NCBI GenBank assembly: GCA_039589315.1
Contig: JBDHHQ010000013.1
Location: forward strand, 1 to 64,000
Direction of reading: 5' to 3'
Source of the DNA: Gemmatimonadota bacterium
GTDB lineage: Bacteria; Gemmatimonadota; Gemmatimonadetes; Longimicrobiales; Gaopeijiaceae
Length of the DNA: 64,000 nucleotides
A program made the position numbers and the translations under genes. Each line of letters opens with the position of its first letter. The first letter of the stretch is position 1. The notes below the pieces were generated by a model, which was given only the letters and a program-made list of their open reading frames with translations, was not told the origin of the DNA and made no database searches. Positions 41,633-56,340 of this stretch are shown here, piece by piece.

Positions 41633-43837
41633 CTACCGCAAGACCTCGCCGAAGGCGACGTCCTCCGCCGCCAGGACGAACGCGGTGGTGGGAAGTCCGT
41701 GGGTGCGCTCCTGCAGACTGGCGATGTAGGCGGGAAAGCCGTCCCCCGGCTGCGCCAACCCCATGAACACCAGGTCCGCGTCGGCGGAGGACGCGCGCAG
41801 GATCTGGTCGAAGGGACGGCCGGCCGCCACGAGCACCTCGGGGTGGGCGCCGATGCGCAGCCCCCTGACCAGCTCGCGCAGGTTCTTGCGCGCGGAGTCG
41901 GCGGCGATCTCGTCGGGCACGACCAGCTTCAACCGCACCTCGGCTCCCCGCCACCCTACGTGGGTGCGCAGCAGATAGGCCAGCAGCATCATGAGCCCGC
42001 CGTTCCGTTCGAGCCCGCCCCACCAGACATCGATCCGGAGCCGGTCGCCGAAGCCACGGTCGTCGGACTCCCGGAGGATGATCACGTTGCGGCGCAGCTG
42101 ATGGAACGTGTCGATCATCTGACAGTAGCGCTCCAGATGCTCCGGCCGCTCACTGTCGCCCAGGATCACCGTGTTGGGGACCAGGGCACCCAGTCCATAC
42201 GTCTGGACGAGCTGCTCCGCGCCTTCGAAGGGGTTGGGGGCCGCCACCAGACGCACCATCGCCTCCACGCCCCGGCGAGCGAGGTACTCCCGCACCGTTC
42301 CTTCGAGGGCGGTCATGCGCCCCGCTTCGCGAGACCCCTGCGGGAGCACGCTGGCCACGGTGATGAGACCGCGGCTGTGTGACACGGCCTCGGCCAACTC
42401 GATCAGGTTCCACCGCTGCGTCGGCGCGCCCGAGAGCACGAGGCTGTGGGGCCGCCAGTTCTTGGGCTCCGAGTCGAGGCCCACGCGGAGGACACCCCCG
42501 CGGACCATGGCCATCCAGATGCCGTGCCGCACGTCCCCCCAGGTGGCCTCCAGCCCTCTGCGCTCGAGCCACAGGTACACCCCCAGGACCACCACGCCCG
42601 AGACCACCGTCGCCACGGCGTTCACCAGGAACATGGCGACCAGACAACCGGTCGCGCCGAGGAAGGACAGGAGCCAATGCACGCGGAAGGACGGACGGAA
42701 CGACGGGCTCGCCAGCAGGCGCTCCGTGCCCGCCGCGACGTTCAGCACCAGGTAGGTGGTCAGGAAGAACATGGTCAGCACGGGCGCGATCACGTCGAGG
42801 TCGCCCAGGGCGACGGCCGCGAGGGCCACGCCGATCGTGAACGCGGTTCCCAGGCGAGGCTCGTCGCTCGGGCCGCTCCCCTTGGACAGCCAGCGCAGGG
42901 CGCCGGGCAGCACCCCGTCATGGGCCAGCGCCTGGAGGACGCGGGGGGCGGCCAGCACGCTTCCCACCGCCGACGACAGGGTCGCGCCCCAAACCCCCAA
43001 CAGGATCGCGTCGCCCCAGAGCGCCATCCGCCGCATGATGAGCGGGTCACCCATGAGGCTGGCCGCATCCGCGCGGAAGGCCAGCAGCACGGGCAACGAC
43101 ATGTAGATCACGTAGCCCACGCCGATGGCCGAGAGCGTCCCCAACGGGATGGAGCGGGCCGGGTTTCTCAGATCCCCCGACATGTTCACCCCGGCCATGA
43201 TTCCGGTGACGGCTGGGAAGAACACCGCGAACACCGTCCAGAAACCCACGAGCTCCGGCGCGGGCCCGGAAGCCGGCGGCAGGGGCCCTGCCGGCATGCC
43301 AGCCACCAGGGAGACCAGAGACAAAGCGATGGCCCCCATGATGAAGTACTGTGCCCGTATGGCGATCCGTGCCGAGCGCAGTGCCAGCACGCCTACCAGC
43401 ACCGTGGTGATCAGGCCGACGGCCTTCTCGTTCACTCCCGGAAACGAGCGCGCCACCGACTCGGCGAACCCCACGGTGTAGAGCGCGATGGACAGGGCCT
43501 GGGCCAGGTACAGCGGGATCCCCACCGCACCCCCGGTCTCGATGCCGAGGGCACGGCTGATCATGTAGTAGGCCCCTCCCACCCGCACCCGCCGATCGGT
43601 GGCGATCTCCGAGATGGACAGCGCGGTCAGGAAGGTGATGAGGGTGGAGATGGTGACGATGACCAGTGTGCCCCAAAGGCCCACGTTTCCCACCACCCAA
43701 CCGAACCGCAAATACATGATCACGCCGAGAATCGTCAGGATCGACGGTGTGAAGACCCCCCCGAAGGTGCCTAGGCCGGCCCCCGCGGCTGCCTCGGCAG
43801 AGCCACGGACAGGTCCCTCTTGCGTGCGTGTGGGCAT
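41633..43837 (-). CDS. Cation-chloride cotransporter (SLC12/CCC-like, APC superfamily)
   Basis: LGTFGGVFTPSILTILGVIMYLRFGWVVG; GGAYYMISR.LG; FAVFFPAVTGIMAG; KNWRP; IDVWW in the cytoplasmic domain. Confidence 0.9.
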   Translation of the reverse strand: MPTRTQEGPVRGSAEAAAGAGLGTFGGVFTPSILTILGVIMYLRFGWVVGNVGLWGTLVIVTISTLITFLTALSISEIATDRRVRVGGAYYMISRALGIETGGAVGIPLYLAQALSIALYTVGFAESVARSFPGVNEKAVGLITTVLVGVLALRSARIAIRAQYFIMGAIALSLVSLVAGMPAGPLPPASGPAPELVGFWTVFAVFFPAVTGIMAGVNMSGDLRNPARSIPLGTLSAIGVGYVIYMSLPVLLAFRADAASLMGDPLIMRRMALWGDAILLGVWGATLSSAVGSVLAAPRVLQALAHDGVLPGALRWLSKGSGPSDEPRLGTAFTIGVALAAVALGDLDVIAPVLTMFFLTTYLVLNVAAGTERLLASPSFRPSFRVHWLLSFLGATGCLVAMFLVNAVATVVSGVVVLGVYLWLERRGLEATWGDVRHGIWMAMVRGGVLRVGLDSEPKNWRPHSLVLSGAPTQRWNLIELAEAVSHSRGLITVASVLPQGSREAGRMTALEGTVREYLARRGVEAMVRLVAAPNPFEGAEQLVQTYGLGALVPNTVILGDSERPEHLERYCQMIDTFHQLRRNVIILRESDDRGFGDRLRIDVWWGGLERNGGLMMLLAYLLRTHVGWRGAEVRLKLVVPDEIAADSARKNLRELVRGLRIGAHPEVLVAAGRPFDQILRASSADADLVFMGLAQPGDGFPAYIASLQERTHGLPTTAFVLAAEDVAFGEVLR

Positions 43838-44105
43838 GGCCCGAACAAGAGTCACAATGGGCGTTGCGGGTCAAGGTCCGCGTGCCACCGCCCGATATCC
43901 CTCCCCCCGGCGGGGCCCCGTAGCCATCTTGGTCGATACGGGCGGAGCTCGTGTTTGGATACCGTCACGGTCCCGGGCGGCACCTGGCGGACCCCAGGCA
44001 GCTCAGCGGTCGCCGGCAGCGCACGTCCGCCCCGTCCGCCTCGCGGCTGACGAGCTTCGGCAGCGGGGCGGTCGGCAGCCCTGGCGACGGCGCGGGAGGA
44101 GTGAC

Positions 44106-45663: not shown

Positions 45664-46443
45664 TCATTCCGGGAGGCGGAAATGCCGGGCGATGGTGTCA
45701 GCGAGGTCATTGAGACATCGCAGGCCGATCGCTCGGCTCATTCCCCGCGCGTCACCCAGGATTCCCGTCGGCGTCGCTTGTCGAAAGCCAGCGCCGATGA
45801 GCCGTTCGAACTCCTCCCTGCTTCCGTCCGGCCGATATCCTGCGGTCGCCTCCTCCTCCTTCACCAGCTCGGGGTGCATGACCAGCATGAGCGAGCTCTC
45901 GGCGATGTCGGCGTGTCCCCCCACGTGCTCGACTGGACCTCCAGCGGCCGCTACAGCCCTCTTCCAGACGGCGAAGAGACCCATGAAGTCCGTGTAGGCG
46001 CGAACCACGCACTCCCCCACTGCGGCCTCGTTCAGCTCTGCCAGCGCCCCGTCCAGCGGCTGAAAGTTGCCACCGTGGGTGGGAAGCATGCAGATCTTCG
46101 TGAAGCCGTGCCTCGAGAGGCTTCGGCAGTAGTCTCTGCAGACAGCCACGAAGGTCTGCGGCTCGAGGCTCAGGGAGCCGGGGAATGCCATGTGGTGCTC
46201 CGAAACCCCCACACGAATCGTGGGCGCCAGCAGGGCGTTGCCGAGGCGGCGCACCACCTCCTCCCCCAGCCACGTTCCGTGCTCAGCGTCCATGAAGAGG
46301 GGCAAGTGAGGTCCATGCTGCTCCACGGCGCCACACGGTACGATCACGGTGGTGAAACCGCTTGCCAGGGCCCGCTCGACATCGGGCCAGGTCAAGCGCT
46401 CCAGGTGAAGACTGGGAAGCTGAAGACCGGGATCAGGCTGCAT
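45664..46443 (-). CDS. Creatininase/MftE-family amidohydrolase
   Basis: P.GAVEQHGPHLP..D; GVSEHHMAFPGSL; HGGN; GGHADIAESS; TGILGD. Confidence 0.9.
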   Translation of the reverse strand: MQPDPGLQLPSLHLERLTWPDVERALASGFTTVIVPCGAVEQHGPHLPLFMDAEHGTWLGEEVVRRLGNALLAPTIRVGVSEHHMAFPGSLSLEPQTFVAVCRDYCRSLSRHGFTKICMLPTHGGNFQPLDGALAELNEAAVGECVVRAYTDFMGLFAVWKRAVAAAGGPVEHVGGHADIAESSLMLVMHPELVKEEEATAGYRPDGSREEFERLIGAGFRQATPTGILGDARGMSRAIGLRCLNDLADTIARHFRLPE

Positions 46444-46537
46444 GGCTCGCTCATCGGTGGTTGGTCGGCGGAGCTCCGCCCTATCGTTCAGCGCGCCGAC
46501 ACCCTTGCGCAACGGGCACCGGAGGCGCAGCGCGTTT

Positions 46538-46696
46538 GGCAATCGCGCTTGCGCCAGCTGCCACGCAGAGGAGGGCGGCGAAGGCACCGAGCTCGAGCCC
46601 GAGTTGCTGACCGACCACGGCAACGCCTTCGACATCTGGGACTACGTGGTGATCTCGATGCCGGAGGATGACCCCGGGGATGAATCACCAGACTAG
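46538..46696 (+). pseudogene. Cytochrome c fragment
   Basis: CASCH heme-binding motif and WDYV..SMP.DDPG axial-Met motif; no credible start or signal peptide, and the frame stops soon after DDPG. Confidence 0.55.
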
Positions 46697-47625
46697 CTCC
46701 CCGCCTCGTCGTCGCCCTCCGCCCGGATCGAGTCGGCTGCCGGCACCACGCGGTCGACCCGGAAGCTGGACAGCCGGAAGACCGTAGAGCCGCCGGGCGT
46801 TCGGGCCAGAAACGTCCCATCACCGCTTCCTGCTACATCCACCACCGCCAGGGTGTCCGTGCCGGCGCCCAGGGCCACGACGCGACGCCGGTCCTCGCCC
46901 TCGAAGGTGATCGTGTCGGGCGCGAACCCGGTGGCCTCCAGGCTGGCGAGCTCTCGCAGGAGATCCCCCACCCGCTCGGCCCTCGCAGGCGCGCCGTCCA
47001 CCGTCCACCCGGCGTCGACTCGCGCCAGGATGTGCTCGTCCCCTCCCCGCTCGAAGATCACGGACTCGACTGCGGCCGTGTCCACGACCACGATGGTCCG
47101 GTCACGCCAGTCCTCCAGGCGGCGCGTGGCGGCGCCCCGGAGTCCCCCCTCGAGCAGGTAGACGGCGTCTTCGTCCGGGAGGCGCGCGAAGCTGCTCGAG
47201 AAGCTCGGCCCCGGCTTGCCGAGCAACACCTCGACCGTGGGATCCTCGTCGGAACGGAACGCCAGGCGCCAGGTGCTGTCGGCCGATACGCCCAGCCGCC
47301 CGTGATTGGACGGGTTGGACGCCACCAGGTCCCTCACCTCGGCGTCCGACACGGCGTCCCAGAACCGTGCCACCGCTGCCGAGTCGGATGGATGGCCGTT
47401 GACGCGCCACGCCCCGGCGGCGCGCTCCAGGGCCACGGTGTCCGTGGGGCCTTCGATCCACACGCTCTGGACCGACGCCTCGCTCAGGCCTGTCAGGGCG
47501 CGAGCCAGCTGCGAGGCGTCCCCGGCCCCTCCCGCCCCGCCCCGACCGAACGCCAGCACCACCAGGTAGACGATGACCAGACCCAGTAGGGTTCCCAATG
47601 CCGCCTTCAGTGCCTTTTCGCTCAC
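46693..47625 (-). CDS. DUF4340-like membrane-anchored protein
   Basis: N-terminal TM segment; duplicated L.R..GAW.V.G..A pattern; DWRDR; last gene of the Gld-like ABC operon. Confidence 0.82.
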   Translation of the reverse strand: MSEKALKAALGTLLGLVIVYLVVLAFGRGGAGGAGDASQLARALTGLSEASVQSVWIEGPTDTVALERAAGAWRVNGHPSDSAAVARFWDAVSDAEVRDLVASNPSNHGRLGVSADSTWRLAFRSDEDPTVEVLLGKPGPSFSSSFARLPDEDAVYLLEGGLRGAATRRLEDWRDRTIVVVDTAAVESVIFERGGDEHILARVDAGWTVDGAPARAERVGDLLRELASLEATGFAPDTITFEGEDRRRVVALGAGTDTLAVVDVAGSGDGTFLARTPGGSTVFRLSSFRVDRVVPAADSIRAEGDDEAGS

Positions 47626-49874
47626 GACACCACCTCCTGCCAACGTCGCTCCGCTCGACGGCGTCGCCCGAGCACCCTGACGGCGCCGAAGACCACGAAG
47701 AGGAGTGGGATCCCGAGCAGGTTGCCCCACTTGAGGCCAGCTCGACTCAGCTCCGACCCGAACACCAACGGTGGCGGGCGCCGGTCCTTGGAACGGATCC
47801 CGATGAGCACCTCGTCCTGGGCCAACCAGTCGATGGCGTTGGCGGCGAAGGCCAGGTTCTGGGGATTGGCCCGTGCGAAGTCGTCCTCCAGGAAGTTCGC
47901 GTCCCCGACGACCAGCAGCCGGCCGACGCCAGTGATCTCTGCCTCGTCATCTGAAGCCCCTGCAGCAGTGGCATCTATGGCCACCGCGACCGTCTGCACC
48001 CCCAGCGACGCCGGATCTTCGGGCAGCGGCATGTCCGGCGTGATCGGGGCCCCGGCCGGCTGCACGCCTCCCGCCTCCGTGGTCTGCCACAACGGCACGG
48101 CAACGGTCGTGTCCGTCACCGTCAGGGGGCTCGCCCACCCCACCGTCAGATTGCCCAGGTCCCGGGTCGTCGCGTGATCCGCGCCGCGGAAGGTGATCGG
48201 CCAGAGGGGATACGACTGGACCAGCTGGAAGACGCCCTGCCTGCCCATGGAGATGCGCTCCGCCGACTGCAGGTCGTAGACGATCCCCTCGCCCACCTCC
48301 ACACCCCGTTCCTCCAGGAGGATCTCGAGGCCGGTGACCAGGGGTCGCGACGTGGGCATCTGTGGATTGATCTCCGTGCGCTCCACCAGGAACAAGGCTG
48401 CGCCCCCGTCATCCAGGTAGCTCTCGATCTGGGCCACCGCGCCTGCGTCCATCTCCTGCGTCGGAGCGGCCACGACTGCCACCAGGAAGCTGTCCACCGA
48501 GAGATCCGCGGTGGAATCGTTCTGAAGATCGACCGTGCGGATGTCATACTGCTCCGAGATCGCCTGGTGGAAGGCCTGGAACTGAAATGGGGAGCGGGCG
48601 CCGAAACCTCCGACGAACCCGAGCCTGGCCTTGTCCGTGTCCGCCATACCATGGATCGCCGAGGCGAGTCGGAATTCCAGGTCGTCGGTCCGGTCGATGA
48701 CGGGAATCACCTCGCGGCTATCCGCATAGAGGATGGCCAGTCCGAAGTAGCCGCGCCGCACCTGGAACTCGTCGTCCCGGAGCACGTTGAACTCGATGGG
48801 CGAGATGCCCAGGCTGGAGGCCTCTGCCTGGGCGTCCTCGTCGTCGTCCGGGTTCAGCGCCTCGACCCTGAGTCCTCCGTCGCTGACGCCGCGGAAGTCG
48901 GCAAGGAGGTCGCGCACGTCCCGGACGATGAGCTGAATCTCGGGGGGCAGCTGCCGGGAAACGAAGAGCTTGATGGTAACGAGATCGTCGATGTCCCGGA
49001 CGATCTGCCGGGTCCCCTCCGACAGCGTGTAGAGGCGGGCCGAGGTCAAGTCGAGGCGGCCCCGCACGTATCCCCCGAGGAGGTTGAGGACCACGACCGC
49101 CCCCGCGATCACCAGGGTCCCGATGCGCAGCCGTCCGTACGCCTCCCGCGATACGCTGAGACGCTCCCGGCTCACCATGGCGTAGGTGAGGAACAGGAAG
49201 AGGCCCGTGCCGGACGCGAAGTAGAGGACGTCTCGCAGGTCCACGACCCCGCGGGCGACGCTCTCGAAGTGAGCCATGACCGACAGGCGCGCCAACGCAC
49301 CGCCCAGGACCGGAGGCAGGCCGATGGACACCACCGGTAGTCCGATGAGGATCAGGGTGAGCGCGGCCGAGGCCGAAAGGATGAACGCGGTGATCTGGTT
49401 TCGGGTGACCGAAGATGCCCACAGGCCGAGGGAGACCAGGAGCGCGCTCAGGAGGGCGGCGCCGGCGTACTGCGCGACGAGTATGCCGGGATCCGCTTCG
49501 GAGACCAGCAGCACCCCGAGCCCCGTGGGCACGGTGGCAGCGAGGGTCACCAGCACGAAGAGCCAGTTGCCCAGGAACTTGCCGGCCACGACCTCGCCCT
49601 CACCGACCGGGTGGGCGAGTAGCCACTCCAGGGTGCCGGAGCGCTTCTCCTCCGACAAGCTCCGCATCGTGATGGCGGGAATGAAGACGGTGAAGAGCCA
49701 CGGGAGCAAGGCGAAGAAGGGGCGGAGGGTCCCGATGCCGGCCGCGTACAGGGAGCGGAACGCCAGGAACAGCCCCAACGCCAGGAAGGCGACGATCAGG
49801 ACGTACGCCGTGGGGTGATCGAAGAAGCCCCGCAGCTCCTGGCGGGCGACATGCCACACGCCACGCCGACTCAT
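47622..49874 (-). CDS. GldF-GldG-like fused ABC permease/auxiliary component
   Basis: PAITMRSLSEEKRSGTLEWL; S.T.NQI.AFI; RLDLT...LYTLS.GT; N...WL...E.LI.IRSK. Confidence 0.88.
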   Translation of the reverse strand: MSRRGVWHVARQELRGFFDHPTAYVLIVAFLALGLFLAFRSLYAAGIGTLRPFFALLPWLFTVFIPAITMRSLSEEKRSGTLEWLLAHPVGEGEVVAGKFLGNWLFVLVTLAATVPTGLGVLLVSEADPGILVAQYAGAALLSALLVSLGLWASSVTRNQITAFILSASAALTLILIGLPVVSIGLPPVLGGALARLSVMAHFESVARGVVDLRDVLYFASGTGLFLFLTYAMVSRERLSVSREAYGRLRIGTLVIAGAVVVLNLLGGYVRGRLDLTSARLYTLSEGTRQIVRDIDDLVTIKLFVSRQLPPEIQLIVRDVRDLLADFRGVSDGGLRVEALNPDDDEDAQAEASSLGISPIEFNVLRDDEFQVRRGYFGLAILYADSREVIPVIDRTDDLEFRLASAIHGMADTDKARLGFVGGFGARSPFQFQAFHQAISEQYDIRTVDLQNDSTADLSVDSFLVAVVAAPTQEMDAGAVAQIESYLDDGGAALFLVERTEINPQMPTSRPLVTGLEILLEERGVEVGEGIVYDLQSAERISMGRQGVFQLVQSYPLWPITFRGADHATTRDLGNLTVGWASPLTVTDTTVAVPLWQTTEAGGVQPAGAPITPDMPLPEDPASLGVQTVAVAIDATAAGASDDEAEITGVGRLLVVGDANFLEDDFARANPQNLAFAANAIDWLAQDEVLIGIRSKDRRPPPLVFGSELSRAGLKWGNLLGIPLLFVVFGAVRVLGRRRRAERRWQEVVS

Positions 49875-50884
49875 CGATCACCTCCCTCGTCGACGGGTGA
49901 CGCCGCGTCCGGCGCATGCGCGGCATGAGCGTCACCGCCTGGGGCGTCCGTCTCTCCGTCCTCGTCGGAGACGGTCAGCTGGCGGAACAGGTCCTCGAGG
50001 CTCGCCCGCTCGCGGTGGAGCTCCCACAGCGTCCACCCTCGGTCCCTGGCCAGGTTGAACACCTGGGGGCCGAGCTGTTCGGTGCCGGAGGCGGACAGCC
50101 GGACCCGCACGCGCCCGCTCAGTGGCTCGACCTCGTGGCTGTCCACGCCCGGGAGCGACGCGAGTCCCTGCGCCACGCCCTCCCCCTCGGCCTCCACGGT
50201 GTAGATCGACGCTCCGGCCTGGTCGGACAGGAGGTCTGTCACGTCGCCGTCGGCGACCAGGGCGCCGCGATTCACGATCAGCAGTCGTTTGCAGGTGGCT
50301 TCCACCTCCTGCATCACGTGCGTGCTCAGGAGGACGGTTCGCTCCTGGCCCAGGCTGCCCACCAGACGGCGGATCTCGACCCTCTGATTCGGATCGAGCC
50401 CTTCCGTAGGCTCGTCCAGGATCAGGATCTCGGGCCGGTGCAGGATGGCCGCGGCCAAGCCGACCCGCTGCCGATAGCCCTTCGACAGCTCCGAGATGGG
50501 GCGATAGAAGACCGTGCTCAGAGCCGTCTCGTCCACGGCGTCCGCCACCGCCAGGCGGAGCGTGGCCCCCTCGATCTCCCTCAGGCGTCCCGCGAAATCG
50601 AGGTACTCGCAAACGAGCATCTCCTCGTACAGCGGATTCGACTCGGGAAGATAGCCCACACGTCTCTGGGCGTCGGCCAGGCCATCGGAAATCGGCACAC
50701 CATCGAAGAGCACCCGCCCTTCGTCGGGCTCCAGCGTACCGGTGAGCATCCGCATGGTCGTCGTCTTCCCGGCACCGTTGGGACCCAGGAAGCCCACGAC
50801 CTCGCCTCGGTCGATGTCGAAGCTCAGGCGGTCCACGGCCGTCAGTGGCCCAAACCGCTTGGTCACGCCTTCGACAGAGATCAT
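49871..50884 (-). CDS. ABC transporter ATP-binding protein (GldA-like)
   Basis: GPNGAGKTT; LSKGYRQRVGLA; ILDEPT; LSTH. Confidence 0.95.
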   Translation of the reverse strand: MISVEGVTKRFGPLTAVDRLSFDIDRGEVVGFLGPNGAGKTTTMRMLTGTLEPDEGRVLFDGVPISDGLADAQRRVGYLPESNPLYEEMLVCEYLDFAGRLREIEGATLRLAVADAVDETALSTVFYRPISELSKGYRQRVGLAAAILHRPEILILDEPTEGLDPNQRVEIRRLVGSLGQERTVLLSTHVMQEVEATCKRLLIVNRGALVADGDVTDLLSDQAGASIYTVEAEGEGVAQGLASLPGVDSHEVEPLSGRVRVRLSASGTEQLGPQVFNLARDRGWTLWELHRERASLEDLFRQLTVSDEDGETDAPGGDAHAAHAPDAASPVDEGGDR

Positions 50885-50906
50885 CGCTCCTCCACTTCAT
50901 GGCACG

Positions 50907-50941
50907 AAAAAAGCGCGCCGCCCTCGTTGTGAAGCGACGCG
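50907..50941 (-). terminator. Intrinsic terminator in the 5' leader of the ABC operon
   Basis: Minus strand CGCGTCGCTTC-ACAAC-GAGGGCGGCGCG-C-TTTTTT, ending about 22 nt before the ATG. Confidence 0.65.
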
Positions 50942-51053
50942 ACGAGTGGCCCAATCTGACGGGGACGGCTGCTCCGTCGCGTCGAGTCAGTACGTGCGAT
51001 GCGCAGCGGATCCAACCCCCTCGCACCGTCGTGATTTGGTCCGAAACGCCCGG

Positions 51054-51082
51054 ATTCTATTCGCGGCCTACAGGTCTGTCCA
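51054..51082 (-). promoter_or_regulatory. Sigma70-type promoter for the ABC operon leader
   Basis: Minus strand TGGACA-17 nt-TAGAAT. Confidence 0.65.
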
Positions 51083-51273
51083 GTGGGGTGCGCCCGAAGC
51101 CGGACCACCCCTTCGATTCGGCGCACGCCTCTTCCGTTGCCTGGCCGCGGGCGCCTCAAGCGACCGGGACCGCGAAGGTCAACCCGTACGTGCACAGCCC
51201 CTGTGGCGGACCGAAGTTGTTGCGCCGAGCGCCGGCGATGCGCCGGCTCGGGCGGGGCTGCAAGGGGGCGTCG

Positions 51274-52551
51274 TCAGGGATGGGGGCGCTTGAACACCTC
51301 ACCGCCCCGCATGACGAACGTGACGCGCTGGGTCGCCGTGATGTCGTCCAGCGGGTTCCCGTCGAGGGCCACCAGGTCCGCGAGGCGCCCCGCCTCGATC
51401 ACGCCCCGGTCACGGACGCCCAACAGGTCGGCGGCGTACAGGGTCGCCGAGCGAAGCGCCTCGAGCTCGTCCATCCCTCGCTTCTGCACGAGCGTCACGA
51501 ACTCTCCCGCATTCTGGCCGTGAGGGTAGACGCCGGCATCGGTGCCGAACGCGATCTTCACGCCGGCCTCCACCGCCCGGGTCACGCTCGCCACCGCCAG
51601 AGGCAGCACCTCCGCCGCCTTGGCCCGAATGGGCGCCGGCAGGGCATCCATGTCGATCTCCTCGACCAGGTAGGTGGTGGGGACCAGGTAGGTGCCATGC
51701 TCCTTCATGAGCTGCATCGCCTCGTCGTCCAGAACCGAGCCGTGCTCGATGGAGGCGACACCCGCCCGGACGGCGGCCTTGATGCCGTCCCCGCCGTGGG
51801 CGTGGGCGGCCACCCTGACACCGTGGCGCGCCGCCTCGTCCACCATGGCCCGGAGCTCCTCGTACGTGTACTGCTGGGCCCCGACGGGACCCTCGAAGGA
51901 CAGCACGCCCGCTGTGGCGCACGTCTTGATCACCTTGGCGCCGTGCTTGATCTGGTAGCGGACCGCCTTCAGGACCTCGTCCACGCCGTCGGCCACGCCG
52001 TCCGTCCAGTCGTTCTCGAGGACGCCCGGCTTCCATCCCGTCGCGTCGCAGTGGCCGCCGGTGATGCCCAGCGCGTTCCGGGACGGGAAAACCCAGGGGG
52101 CGTCCGCCTCACCCCGTTCAACGGCGCGCTGCAGGGCCACAGTCACGTCACCGCCGAAATCGCGGACGGTCGTGAAGCCCGCCAGCAGGGTCTTCTCGCC
52201 GTAGAACGCGGCCTTGAAGGCAGACTCGGACTCGAGCATGCGCACCGGCGCGGTGAACATCTCCGGGCTGACCTGTCCGGCGAGGTGCGTATGCAGGTCC
52301 ATGAAGCCCGGCACGAGCGTCGCCGCGCCGAGGTCGACCTCCTCGGCGGCGGAGGGGAGGCTTCCCGGATTCACCGATTCGATGGTTCGGCCCCGCACGA
52401 CGACCACGGGGTCGCTGATCATCTCGCCCGAGACCACGTCGAGCATCCGGGCGGCGCGGAGCACGATCGGCGTGGCATCCTGACCCCACGACGGTGCGGG
52501 AAGAGCCAGGACCAGGAGGAGGAGCGCCAGCGTCAGGCGAGGGTGTGTCAT
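51274..52551 (-). CDS. Exported amidohydrolase-family protein (Xaa-Pro dipeptidase-like)
   Basis: PGFMDLHTH; AGFTTVRD; TGGH.D; AAHAHG; SIEHG; FGTDAG; GRLADLVA. Confidence 0.92.
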   Translation of the reverse strand: MTHPRLTLALLLLVLALPAPSWGQDATPIVLRAARMLDVVSGEMISDPVVVVRGRTIESVNPGSLPSAAEEVDLGAATLVPGFMDLHTHLAGQVSPEMFTAPVRMLESESAFKAAFYGEKTLLAGFTTVRDFGGDVTVALQRAVERGEADAPWVFPSRNALGITGGHCDATGWKPGVLENDWTDGVADGVDEVLKAVRYQIKHGAKVIKTCATAGVLSFEGPVGAQQYTYEELRAMVDEAARHGVRVAAHAHGGDGIKAAVRAGVASIEHGSVLDDEAMQLMKEHGTYLVPTTYLVEEIDMDALPAPIRAKAAEVLPLAVASVTRAVEAGVKIAFGTDAGVYPHGQNAGEFVTLVQKRGMDELEALRSATLYAADLLGVRDRGVIEAGRLADLVALDGNPLDDITATQRVTFVMRGGEVFKRPHP

Positions 52552-52750: not shown

Positions 52751-55046
<2,296 letters not shown>

Positions 55047-55065
55047 CCCGCCGTCCTCGGCCCGC

Positions 55066-56214
55066 TCACGCGAACACTGCGCCGGCCGCGATGCGCCAAC
55101 GGGGCAGCGTGTCCCTGCGCACCCTCACGTCGCCCTCCTTGGGCGCGGTGAGGATCACCTGCCCGGTTTCCTCGCGCTCGATGAGCTCCAGAATCCGCGC
55201 ACTCCGACCCGCATCGAGCTCCGCGAATACGTCATCCATGAGCACCACCGGCTCCTGTCCCCGAGCCGTCCGGATGGTCTCGGCCTCGGTCAAGCGTAGC
55301 GCCAGCGCGGCCGTGCGTCGCTGCCCCCCGGAGCCGTAATCCCGAAGATCTATCTCGCCGCCCTCCGTGAAGAGCGTGAGACGGAGGTCGTCCCGGTGCG
55401 GACCCACGACCGTGTTGCCCATTCTCCGCTCTCGATCCGCGGCGGCGCAAAGCGCCTCGCGGAAGCGCGCCTGGACCTCCTCCTGATCGGGCGGCTCCAC
55501 GGCTCCCGGCTCTGTCGCATCGCCCAACGGTACACCGGAGTGATGCGTCATCCGACATCGTTGTCCCCCGGATATGCTCTCGTAATACCGGCCGAACGTT
55601 TCAGCCCACCGGGCCACCCAGGCCCAACGGGCCCGTGACACCGTCGTGCCTGAACGGATCAATGGCTCGTCCCAGACTTGTACCAACGCCGCCGGCTGCT
55701 CCCTCTTCAACGTCGCGTTCCTCTGTGCCAGGACATGACGATACCGCTGAAGGGCCTCGAGGTAGCCCTGTCGGTTCAGCGAAAGGACGATGTCCAGGAA
55801 GCGGCGCCGGGCCCCCGGCCCGCCGTTCACCAGCGCCACGTCGGCCGGGGAGAAGATGACCGCCGCCAGCCTGCCCAGTGCATCGCCGATGCGCTCCGTC
55901 TCCACCCCATCCACTGTGACCTTCTTCCGCCTTCCCCTCCGTTGGAACGCGGCCGTGACCTCCACAGGCCGATCCGCGGCGACCTGCGGCTGAAGCGAGG
56001 CGGCTACGTGGAACGCCTCGGCGCCGAAGCCCACGAGCTGCTCGTCCCTTCCGCCGCGAAAGGACCGAAAGGTCTCCAGATAGTAGATCGACTCCAGGAG
56101 GTTCGACTTCCCCTGAGCGTTTTCTCCGACGATCGCCGCTCCCTCCGGCGGAAAGAACAGCTCCTGTCTTCCCAGATTGCGGAAGTCGCGGAGCGAGAGC
56201 CGGCTCAAGTGCAC
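55066..56214 (-). CDS. recF: DNA replication and repair protein RecF
   Basis: L.DFRN; GENAQGKSNLLE; G.P..RRRFLD; GPHRDD; SGGQ; MDDVFAELD. Start taken at GTG 56214. Confidence 0.95.
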   Translation of the reverse strand: MHLSRLSLRDFRNLGRQELFFPPEGAAIVGENAQGKSNLLESIYYLETFRSFRGGRDEQLVGFGAEAFHVAASLQPQVAADRPVEVTAAFQRRGRRKKVTVDGVETERIGDALGRLAAVIFSPADVALVNGGPGARRRFLDIVLSLNRQGYLEALQRYRHVLAQRNATLKREQPAALVQVWDEPLIRSGTTVSRARWAWVARWAETFGRYYESISGGQRCRMTHHSGVPLGDATEPGAVEPPDQEEVQARFREALCAAADRERRMGNTVVGPHRDDLRLTLFTEGGEIDLRDYGSGGQRRTAALALRLTEAETIRTARGQEPVVLMDDVFAELDAGRSARILELIEREETGQVILTAPKEGDVRVRRDTLPRWRIAAGAVFA

Positions 56215-56340
56215 CGGAAGCGGGTCGGAGAATGCCGGAAAAGCATGAGGGAATTTAGTCACTTCGAGGCGATCGCGCTACCCCGACGGGGCGCGGAAAG
56301 CTCAACAATGACAACGATTTTGGGCGTTTTGCGGATCGGA

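What the first reader, a model, noticed from the sequence alone, without database searches (positions are those of the whole stretch)
50885..51082. Candidate new riboswitch/attenuator: promoter, switchable leader and terminator upstream of the Gld-like ABC operon
Seen on the minus strand, in order: promoter TGGACA-17-TAGAAT; a leader of about 165 nt; hairpin GTGCGA...TCGCAC (51026-50994); stem CTGAC...GACGG-AGCAG-CCGTC...GTCAG (50990-50956); a terminator hairpin with U6 (50941-50907); then GGAGGAG and the ATG. CGACGCGACG (50984-50975) is perfectly complementary to CGTCGCGTCG (50944-50935), which overlaps the terminator's 5' arm, while the GACGG/CCGTC stem sequesters part of that 10-mer. This is anti-antiterminator/antiterminator/terminator logic. 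I recognise no known aptamer and see no convincing leader peptide. The substrate of such GldAFG-DUF4340 transporters is not known to me, so the ligand could reveal it.
Basis: partly seen in the sequence, partly recalled or inferred. Interest (0 to 1): 0.72.

Follow-up and report, generated by a model that had tools for sequence, protein, structure and literature searches.

The report
Conserved orphan attenuator before Gld-like transporter
A short RNA leader in front of a poorly understood membrane transporter can fold either to stop or to allow transcription, and this switch-like design is conserved across many uncultured Gemmatimonadota genera, but nothing in its sequence yet shows that it senses a small molecule.

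Summary
The promoter, terminator and antiterminator are conserved. Among 141 upstream regions of gldA-like orthologs, 70 carry exact TGGACA-17-TAGAAT and 82 carry the terminator. A segment A (GCYCGAC) pairs with the terminator's 5' arm, with compensatory changes in both mutually exclusive helices (91% and 93% of cells paired; 58 sequences, 24 genera). A covariance model finds one copy in the window's genome. Of 18 non-seed hits (E ≤ 0.007), 16 lie directly upstream of gldA, and strong hits occur only in two families of one order (inferred Longimicrobiales). There is no Rfam match and no conserved leader peptide. A weaker family-level equivalent (A:J) is only suggestive. Ten of the eleven near-invariant positions lie in the two strong helices, so no aptamer core is evident. 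The element has been lost repeatedly. Best reading: an undescribed, finely balanced transcription attenuator set by a protein or by polymerase kinetics (0.45). Rivals are a fixed leaky dampener (0.30) and a riboswitch (0.17). No expression data were available.

The parts
51112..51141 (-). Upstream ECF-sigma-like promoter motif (GGCAACG 51141-51135, GAATCGAA 51119-51112); function inferred
   Evidence: A loose -35 half occurs in 61 of 139 upstream regions. The family-wide pattern gives 134 matches against 48 for the reversed control (hand count). A copy precedes a sigma70 r2+r4 gene at G000 C40. There is no excess within G000 alone.
51054..51082 (-). sigma70-type promoter TGGACA-17-TAGAAT; start site about 51047 (inferred, not mapped)
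   Evidence: unique in the genome; exact in 70 of 141 and score of 9/12 or more in 121 of 141 orthologous regions
50994..51026 (-). 5' hairpin GTGCGA...TCGCAC; specific to this genome, not conserved
   Evidence: Present in predicted folds, altered in congener L001. The 5' regions fold better than shuffles in only 5 of 36 leaders.
50975..50987 (-). Segment A, 5' strand of the antiterminator (family core GCYCGAC = 50987-50981, extended here to 50975)
   Evidence: Alignments A1 and A2; pair counts
50958..50978 (-). P2, a variable-length stem-loop nested inside the antiterminator (family register GACGG / CCGTC 50962-50958)
   Evidence: The top mutual-information pairs are 18:49 and 19:48. 77% of cells are paired, with two-sided changes at all 4 pairs.
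50948..50955 (-). Segment J (family YUCGYGC, here AUUGGGCC): conserved joiner, possible weak anti-antiterminator partner of A or a recognition site
   Evidence: G62 is 99% conserved. A:J has 76% of cells paired and 8:58 CG/UA covariation. Its energy is not above shuffles in any of 63 sequences.
50932..50944 (-). Segment B, shared by the antiterminator (A:B) and the terminator 5' arm (B:C)
50907..50941 (-). Intrinsic terminator: stem 50941-50914 (3' arm C 50920-50913), U6 50912-50907
   Evidence: 82 of 141 orthologous regions by consensus-guided search and 78 of 141 by consensus-free search; 92.7% of cells paired
50887..50893 (-). Shine-Dalgarno GGAGGAG
   Evidence: Its accessibility is unchanged between the two states (0.30 vs 0.27).
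49871..50884 (-). GldA-like ABC ATPase, 337 aa
   Evidence: PF00005; TIGR03522 310.5 bits, below the 402.6 cut-off
47622..49874 (-). GldF-GldG-like fusion: ABC-2 permease + DUF7088 + ABC_transp_aux, 750 aa
   Evidence: TIGR03518 and TIGR03521 both below cut-off
46693..47730 (-). DUF4340 protein, last conserved gene of the operon (the true start is probably downstream of the listed GTG)
   Evidence: PF14238. It co-occurs with gldA and gldFG in relatives; creatininase and SLC12 do not.

Best explanation
An undescribed, operon-specific transcription attenuator without a small-molecule aptamer. SHOWN by comparison: the leader holds two copies of one strand (A, C) and one full complement (B), so A:B (read-through) and B:C plus the U tract (termination) exclude each other, and both helices are conserved with compensatory changes. 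PREDICTED by folding: A:B forms once B leaves the polymerase, and C then has to invade it. The two end states lie within a few kcal/mol (terminator favoured in 59 of 81 leaders, median -3.9 kcal/mol; in this genome read-through is favoured by 1.7). INFERRED: the balance is tipped in vivo from outside the RNA, most likely by an RNA-binding protein acting on the A-P2-J arm (holding A on J favours termination, freeing A favours read-through), otherwise by polymerase speed or pausing. This would tune expression of an envelope-related Gld-like ABC system that has a strong sigma70 promoter and probably a second ECF-sigma promoter.
For: A:B has 91.3% of 404 cells paired, 34 two-sided changes, 0/500 shuffles reaching that, and 18-41% paired when slid. 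The terminator has 92.7% paired. Pair 7:81 switches among UA, CG and UG in several separate clades, and pair 74:100 switches GC/AU in two (GldA tree). In a set chosen without using A, 56 of 77 leaders have a helix of 7 bp or more to B against 28.2 expected, and 25 of 81 beat shuffles at p<0.05. Frequent G-U substitutions point to RNA-level selection. Non-seed model hits lie directly upstream of gldA in 11 of 12 and 5 of 6. With B exposed and C not yet made, A:B probability exceeds 0.5 in 46 of 58. There is no shared uORF and no Shine-Dalgarno switch.
Against: No transcript data: no RNA run was listed. No regulator is encoded in the conserved operon and no candidate protein was identified. The seed alignment was chosen for the very helices then counted, so the pair counts lean in their favour. 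Only 10 of 77 leaders are individually significant by helix length. A:J is no stronger than shuffles (0 of 63) and its covariation rests on 1-2 events. The element is missing from 59 of 141 regions, and some genera keep a terminator with weak or no A (g24, g35, g94), which a fixed dampener explains equally well. U tracts are often interrupted.
Confidence: 0.45

Rival explanations
1. A fixed leaky dampener: the partial antiterminator sets a constant read-through fraction behind a strong promoter, keeping a membrane complex at low dosage, with no regulated input.
For: Ten of 11 near-invariant columns are explained by the two strong helices. The energy gap varies from -13 to +11.5 kcal/mol between genomes. 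The element is lost repeatedly: 19 of 141 regions have the promoter within 70 nt of the start. Terminators with weak or no A persist in some genera. The G000 ensemble barely shifts between 15 and 50 C.
Against: A dampener could be had more simply with a weaker promoter or terminator. The three-strand layout, nested P2 and J motif persist across orthologs only 60-75% identical in protein and across two families.
Confidence: 0.3
2. A new small-molecule or ion riboswitch. The A:B/P2/J domain is an ON aptamer, or the A:J/P2 hairpin is an OFF aptamer, and the ligand relates to the transporter's substrate.
For: The architecture (P1 excluding a terminator) is that of ON switches such as the Na+ riboswitch (PMC9337991, main text parts 1-2 of 8 read). 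The joiner motif YUCGYGC is conserved, with G62 at 99% and a persistent mismatch at 7:61 in 45 of 58. The motif is always 5' of the same genes. Naville and Gautheret raise this option for similar ABC leaders (PMC2965389, section 9 read).
Against: No Rfam match in the window or in 15 homologues; RF03071 does not hit the leader. At most one near-invariant residue lies outside the strong helices. P2 and J vary in length, register and sequence, and genus g6 lacks J. It was not found before any other gene family.
Confidence: 0.17
3. Ribosome-, translation- or antisense-controlled leader, or a DNA-level repeat or operator with no RNA role.
For: 15 of 69 leaders have some SD plus start codon before B. 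A and C are direct repeats and B:C is an inverted repeat.
Against: Those starts are genus-specific and G000 has none. SD accessibility is not higher in the ON state (medians 0.28 vs 0.38, n=66), and there is no antisense sigma70-like promoter between B and the start codon in any of 69 (further downstream was not examined). G-U substitutions and a 1-11+ nt variable loop argue against an operator. The element is single-copy, so it is not REP-like.
Confidence: 0.08

Closest known systems
Orphan 'ABC-leaders' (Naville and Gautheret 2010, PMC2965389; section 9 and passages read)
   Same: Conserved 5' terminator with antiterminator upstream of ABC transporter operons, signal unknown
   Different: Those listed are in Gammaproteobacteria and Firmicutes before other transporters. 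This one is before a GldA/GldFG/DUF4340 operon in Gemmatimonadota. Their supplementary alignments were not seen, so no sequence comparison was made.
Protein-controlled attenuators such as B. subtilis rplJL L10(L12)4 leader (PMC4538822, abstract read) and PyrR (recalled)
   Same: Anti-antiterminator / antiterminator / terminator logic with a trans-acting protein and no metabolite aptamer
   Different: In the classical layout (recalled) the antiterminator is 2:3; here it is 1:3 and encloses P2 and J. The anti-antiterminator is weak and unproven, and no binding protein is known.
Na+ riboswitch, DUF1646 motif, RF03071 (PMC9337991)
   Same: ON-type competition between an upstream structure and an intrinsic terminator; the G000 leader has a chance-looking TCAGATTGGGCC stretch that I recalled as similar
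   Different: No RF03071 match at the leader. That stretch is not conserved in the family, and the genes are not Na+ related.
rimP-leader (PMC2965389, passage read)
   Same: A sequence-conserved terminator stem in a 5' leader without a larger aptamer
   Different: Different sequence and genes; here there is an additional covarying antiterminator strand.
Flavobacterium GldAFG (PMC9127263, passages read) and Myxococcus PilGHI (PMC3724824, passages read)
   Same: The downstream ATPase and permease resemble GldA, GldF and GldG by profile
   Different: All three scores are below the equivalog cut-offs, and GldF and GldG are fused. Homology to PilGHI is recalled, not tested. The substrate is not named in the passages read.

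Membership tests
Transcription attenuator (general) | Intrinsic terminator between promoter and first gene | tested here: met
   (sequence level only)
Transcription attenuator (general) | Conserved alternative helix that excludes the terminator | tested here: met
Transcription attenuator (general) | Conditional premature termination in vivo | not testable with these tools
   No RNA run listed
Known Rfam riboswitch classes | Match to a curated covariance model | tested here: not met
Metabolite/ion riboswitch (new class) | Cluster of invariant nucleotides outside helices (aptamer core) | tested here: not met
   10 of 11 columns at 90% or more lie in A:B or B:C; only G62 in J does not
Metabolite/ion riboswitch (new class) | Protein-free ligand binding that switches termination | not testable with these tools
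   Needs in-line probing and in vitro transcription
Leader-peptide attenuator | Conserved uORF with ribosome binding site overlapping the antiterminator | tested here: not met
   15 of 69 leaders have an SD plus start, none shared across genera, none in G000; leaderless initiation not tested
Protein-dependent AAT attenuator (L10/L20/PyrR type) | Conserved anti-antiterminator hairpin | tested here: inconclusive
   A:J 76% paired with covariation from 1-2 events; formed before B in 16 of 58; energy not above shuffles
Protein-dependent AAT attenuator (L10/L20/PyrR type) | Identified binding protein | not testable with these tools
   None in the conserved operon
BglG/LicT RAT antiterminator | CAT RNA-binding-domain protein in the genome | tested here: not met
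   PF03123 not found in G000 (95% complete); controls rang in 4 genomes
ANTAR-regulated leader | ANTAR protein in the genome | tested here: inconclusive
   PF03861 not found, but no control genome rang either
GldA/GldF/GldG equivalogs | NCBIfam score above the curated cut-off | tested here: not met
   310.5/402.6, 157.8/288.5, 120.3/389.85 bits

The most novel reading that the evidence does not exclude
The A-P2-J-B domain is the aptamer of a new riboswitch class, or the site of a new autoregulatory sensor, confined to one order of Gemmatimonadota. Its ligand is the substrate or an envelope signal of GldAFG/DUF4340-type ABC systems, which would give a direct handle on what these widespread transporters move.
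Probability: 0.17. Interest if true: 0.8.

Novelty: new member of a known kind. Interest (0 to 1): 0.48.

Why it matters
It is a real, apparently undescribed cis-regulatory RNA family, with about 75 sequences collected here and a working model, in a mostly uncultured lineage. It is the only leader-level control I found on a Gld-like ABC operon. It is short enough to test in vitro or in a surrogate host. If a factor or ligand tips it, that would point to the physiological role of a transporter type whose substrate was not named in the papers I read. If it is only a fixed dampener, it is a modest example of terminator tuning that is repeatedly deleted.

Tried and rejected
Rfam at gathering and E-value thresholds: nothing real in the window or in 15 homologous leaders. 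My first guess of a Na+/Li+ riboswitch came from recalled consensus; RF03071 does not hit the leader and the resembling stretch is not conserved. Second copies or a regulon: none in G000; 10 weaker family hits and 8 weak hits from other orders of the phylum are coding sequence or unrelated terminators, none directly upstream of a gldA ortholog; L174 and L285 are the two stronger exceptions. A:J by energy: 0 of 63 at p<0.05; the G000 A:J energy used wrong coordinates and was redone (-47.2 vs -53.2). J:C pseudoknot: no signal among the top mutual-information pairs. uORF, SD switch, antisense promoter and thermosensor: no support. RNA runs: no RNA holder listed, which is no evidence either way. 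Earlier scan findings: none returned. Literature searches (listings seen) showed no description of this motif, and the main text of PMC8632094 has none of gldA, Gemmatimon, Longimicrob, DUF4340 or gliding. Supplements of RNA-motif surveys were not read and could hold it.

Full report
OBSERVATION. The promoter is one of 2 in a 12 kb scan against 0.4 expected. The terminator is one of 2 against 3.7 expected. The exact promoter is unique in the genome. The 10-nt complement beats dinucleotide shuffles (p=0.0045). The leader as a whole folds no better than shuffles (z=0.18), and its minimum-energy fold is the antiterminated form. Downstream lie a GldA-like ATPase, a GldF-GldG-like fusion and a DUF4340 protein (all NCBIfam scores below cut-off). 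These three are the only genes that travel together in relatives. Rfam finds nothing.

COMPARATIVE SET. The ATPase has an ortholog at E ≤ 1e-100 in 194 of 314 genomes of the family. I fetched upstream regions for 140 orthologs, 138 from the family and 2 from another family of the same order, giving 141 with G000. The 44 matches not listed and a few listed ones were not fetched. The nearest named records are titled Longimicrobiales or UBA6960 Gemmatimonadota, so the order and family names are inferred. The best promoter match is exactly TGGACA-17-TAGAAT in 70 of 141, and scores 9 of 12 or better in 121. A terminator is found in 78 of 141 without a consensus and in 82 of 141 with a consensus drawn from the same data. 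The two sets share 68, and the 82 span 26 of 41 genera.

ANATOMY. The leaders share an order of parts: variable 5' region; A (GCYCGAC); variable stem P2; joiner J (YUCGYGC); B (GCCRCGUCGRGC); loop; C (CGRCGYGG); U-rich tract. In an all-column scan of the 46-sequence seed, the two longest helices are B:C and A:B. On 58 sequences from 24 genera, A:B has 91.3% of cells paired and 34 two-sided changes, and the terminator 92.7%. No shuffle of 500 reaches these values, and slid registers fall to 18-51%. The seed was chosen for these helices, so I also tested leaders picked by terminator alone. There 56 of 77 have a helix of 7 bp or more to B against 28.2 expected, though only 10 are individually significant, and 25 of 81 beat shuffles by duplex energy (G000 itself did not in that test because its helix is shifted). 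On a GldA tree of 34 element-bearing sequences plus 3 outgroups, pair 7:81 alternates among UA, CG and UG in several clades, 74:100 changes in two, and 8:80 in one.

SPECIFICITY AND RANGE. Model R1 finds one significant copy in G000 and matches in 38 of 151 family genomes. Of the non-seed hits fetched, 11 of 12 and 5 of 6 from an order-wide search (all five in the second family) lie directly upstream of the gldA ortholog. None of 10 weaker hits does. In 151 genomes across the phylum the strong hits are all from this order. Among 80 genome loci and 80 metagenome loci of GldA relatives, strong upstream hits number 3 and 2, all at orthologs 63% identical or more. Orthologs in records titled Gemmatimonadales mostly have short leaders without the element. 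It is therefore an operon-specific, lineage-restricted RNA, not a repeat and not a regulon.

The GACGG-AGCAG-CCGTC and GTGCGA/TCGCAC hairpins are changed in the congeneric genome. In the family, P2 nests inside A:B. Mutual information points instead to a possible A:J helix (8:58 CG/UA): five of six columns pair in 46-54 of 58 sequences and one is mostly mismatched. In the second-family hits J reads UCGGGU, UUGAGC, UCGAGA or CUGAGC, each able to pair A (read by eye). Against this: A:J forms before B in only 16 of 58 predicted ensembles, beats shuffles in 0 of 63, costs 6 kcal/mol in G000, and its covariation rests on one or two events. It stays a lead.

HOW IT LIKELY WORKS. Folding of nascent lengths gives A:B in 46 of 58 once B is out. 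With C added, the terminator wins in 39 and A:B persists in 18, including G000 (0.88). Across 81 leaders the terminated state is favoured in 59, median -3.9 kcal/mol. In G000 read-through leads by 1.7 kcal/mol. This is a poised switch by prediction only. There is no shared leader peptide, no Shine-Dalgarno switch and no nearby antisense promoter. Ten of the 11 columns conserved at 90% or more lie in A:B or B:C, and only G62 of J lies outside. By general knowledge of riboswitch aptamers, that is too little for a ligand pocket. I therefore favour an attenuator tipped by a protein on the A-P2-J arm or by polymerase kinetics (0.45), then a fixed leaky dampener (0.30), a riboswitch (0.17) and other mechanisms (0.08). 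No regulator was identified: no CAT-RBD protein, ANTAR inconclusive, and the second NusG-family gene lies among genes that look like nucleotide-sugar enzymes.

CONTEXT. A second motif, GGCAAC(C/G)-N15/16-GCRTC, lies upstream of the sigma70 promoter. It is enriched family-wide (134 vs 48 reversed control, hand count), and a copy precedes a sigma-factor gene in G000. In genus g16, 11 of 13 regions lack the sigma70 promoter and 10 of those show this motif. This suggests ECF-sigma input, but it is inferred. The element is missing in 59 of 141 regions, and several g54 leaders begin at the terminator's 3' arm, as expected from deletion between the A and C repeats or near them.

COMPARISON AND NOVELTY. 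It works like the orphan ABC-leaders of Naville and Gautheret (PMC2965389, passages and section 9) and resembles protein-controlled attenuators such as rplJL (PMC4538822, abstract). It fails membership of known Rfam riboswitches and of leader-peptide attenuators. Nine literature searches and one full-text find showed no description; supplements were not read and most subscription papers are not searched. Verdict: a real, apparently new RNA family of a known kind, with an unknown input. No RNA run was listed, so termination itself is untested.

Noticed in passing
window 51141-51112 (-); G000:C40:56956-56985 (L286): Conserved ECF-type promoter motif GGCAAC(C/G)-N15/16-GCRTCSMA. A copy precedes a sigma70 r2+r4 gene followed by an anti-sigma-like ORF with no Pfam hit; it could define an ECF regulon in this family.
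   Followed up: partly
L068, L112, L063, L116, L098 (genus g54): Leaders start at the terminator's 3' arm right after the promoter, which looks like repeated deletion of the attenuator.
   Followed up: partly
L009, L065, L066, L082 and other g6 leaders: Variant leader without J; a small upstream GCGAG-TTG-CTCGC hairpin could sequester A instead. Model R1 does not score these at E ≤ 0.001.
   Followed up: partly
G000:C32:1780-2325 (L287): Second NusG-family gene (LoaP/UpxY-like by recall) among genes that look like nucleotide-sugar enzymes.
   Followed up: partly
L179, L181, L180, L174: Terminators with stems very like B:C occur elsewhere: before an ORF that reads like glutaminyl-tRNA synthetase (recalled motif) and before a TetR-like ORF. 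They lack a convincing A-P2-J arm.
   Followed up: no
window 41633-43855 (-), 45664-46635 (-), 51274-52551 (-), 52751-56262 (-): SLC12-type amino acid permease, creatininase, amidohydrolase and gyrB/recF-like genes flank the operon but are not conserved beside it.
   Followed up: partly
L074, L085, L101, L110, L122 (g54): Long insertions in J or in the terminator loop keep the A, B and C segments in place.
   Followed up: no
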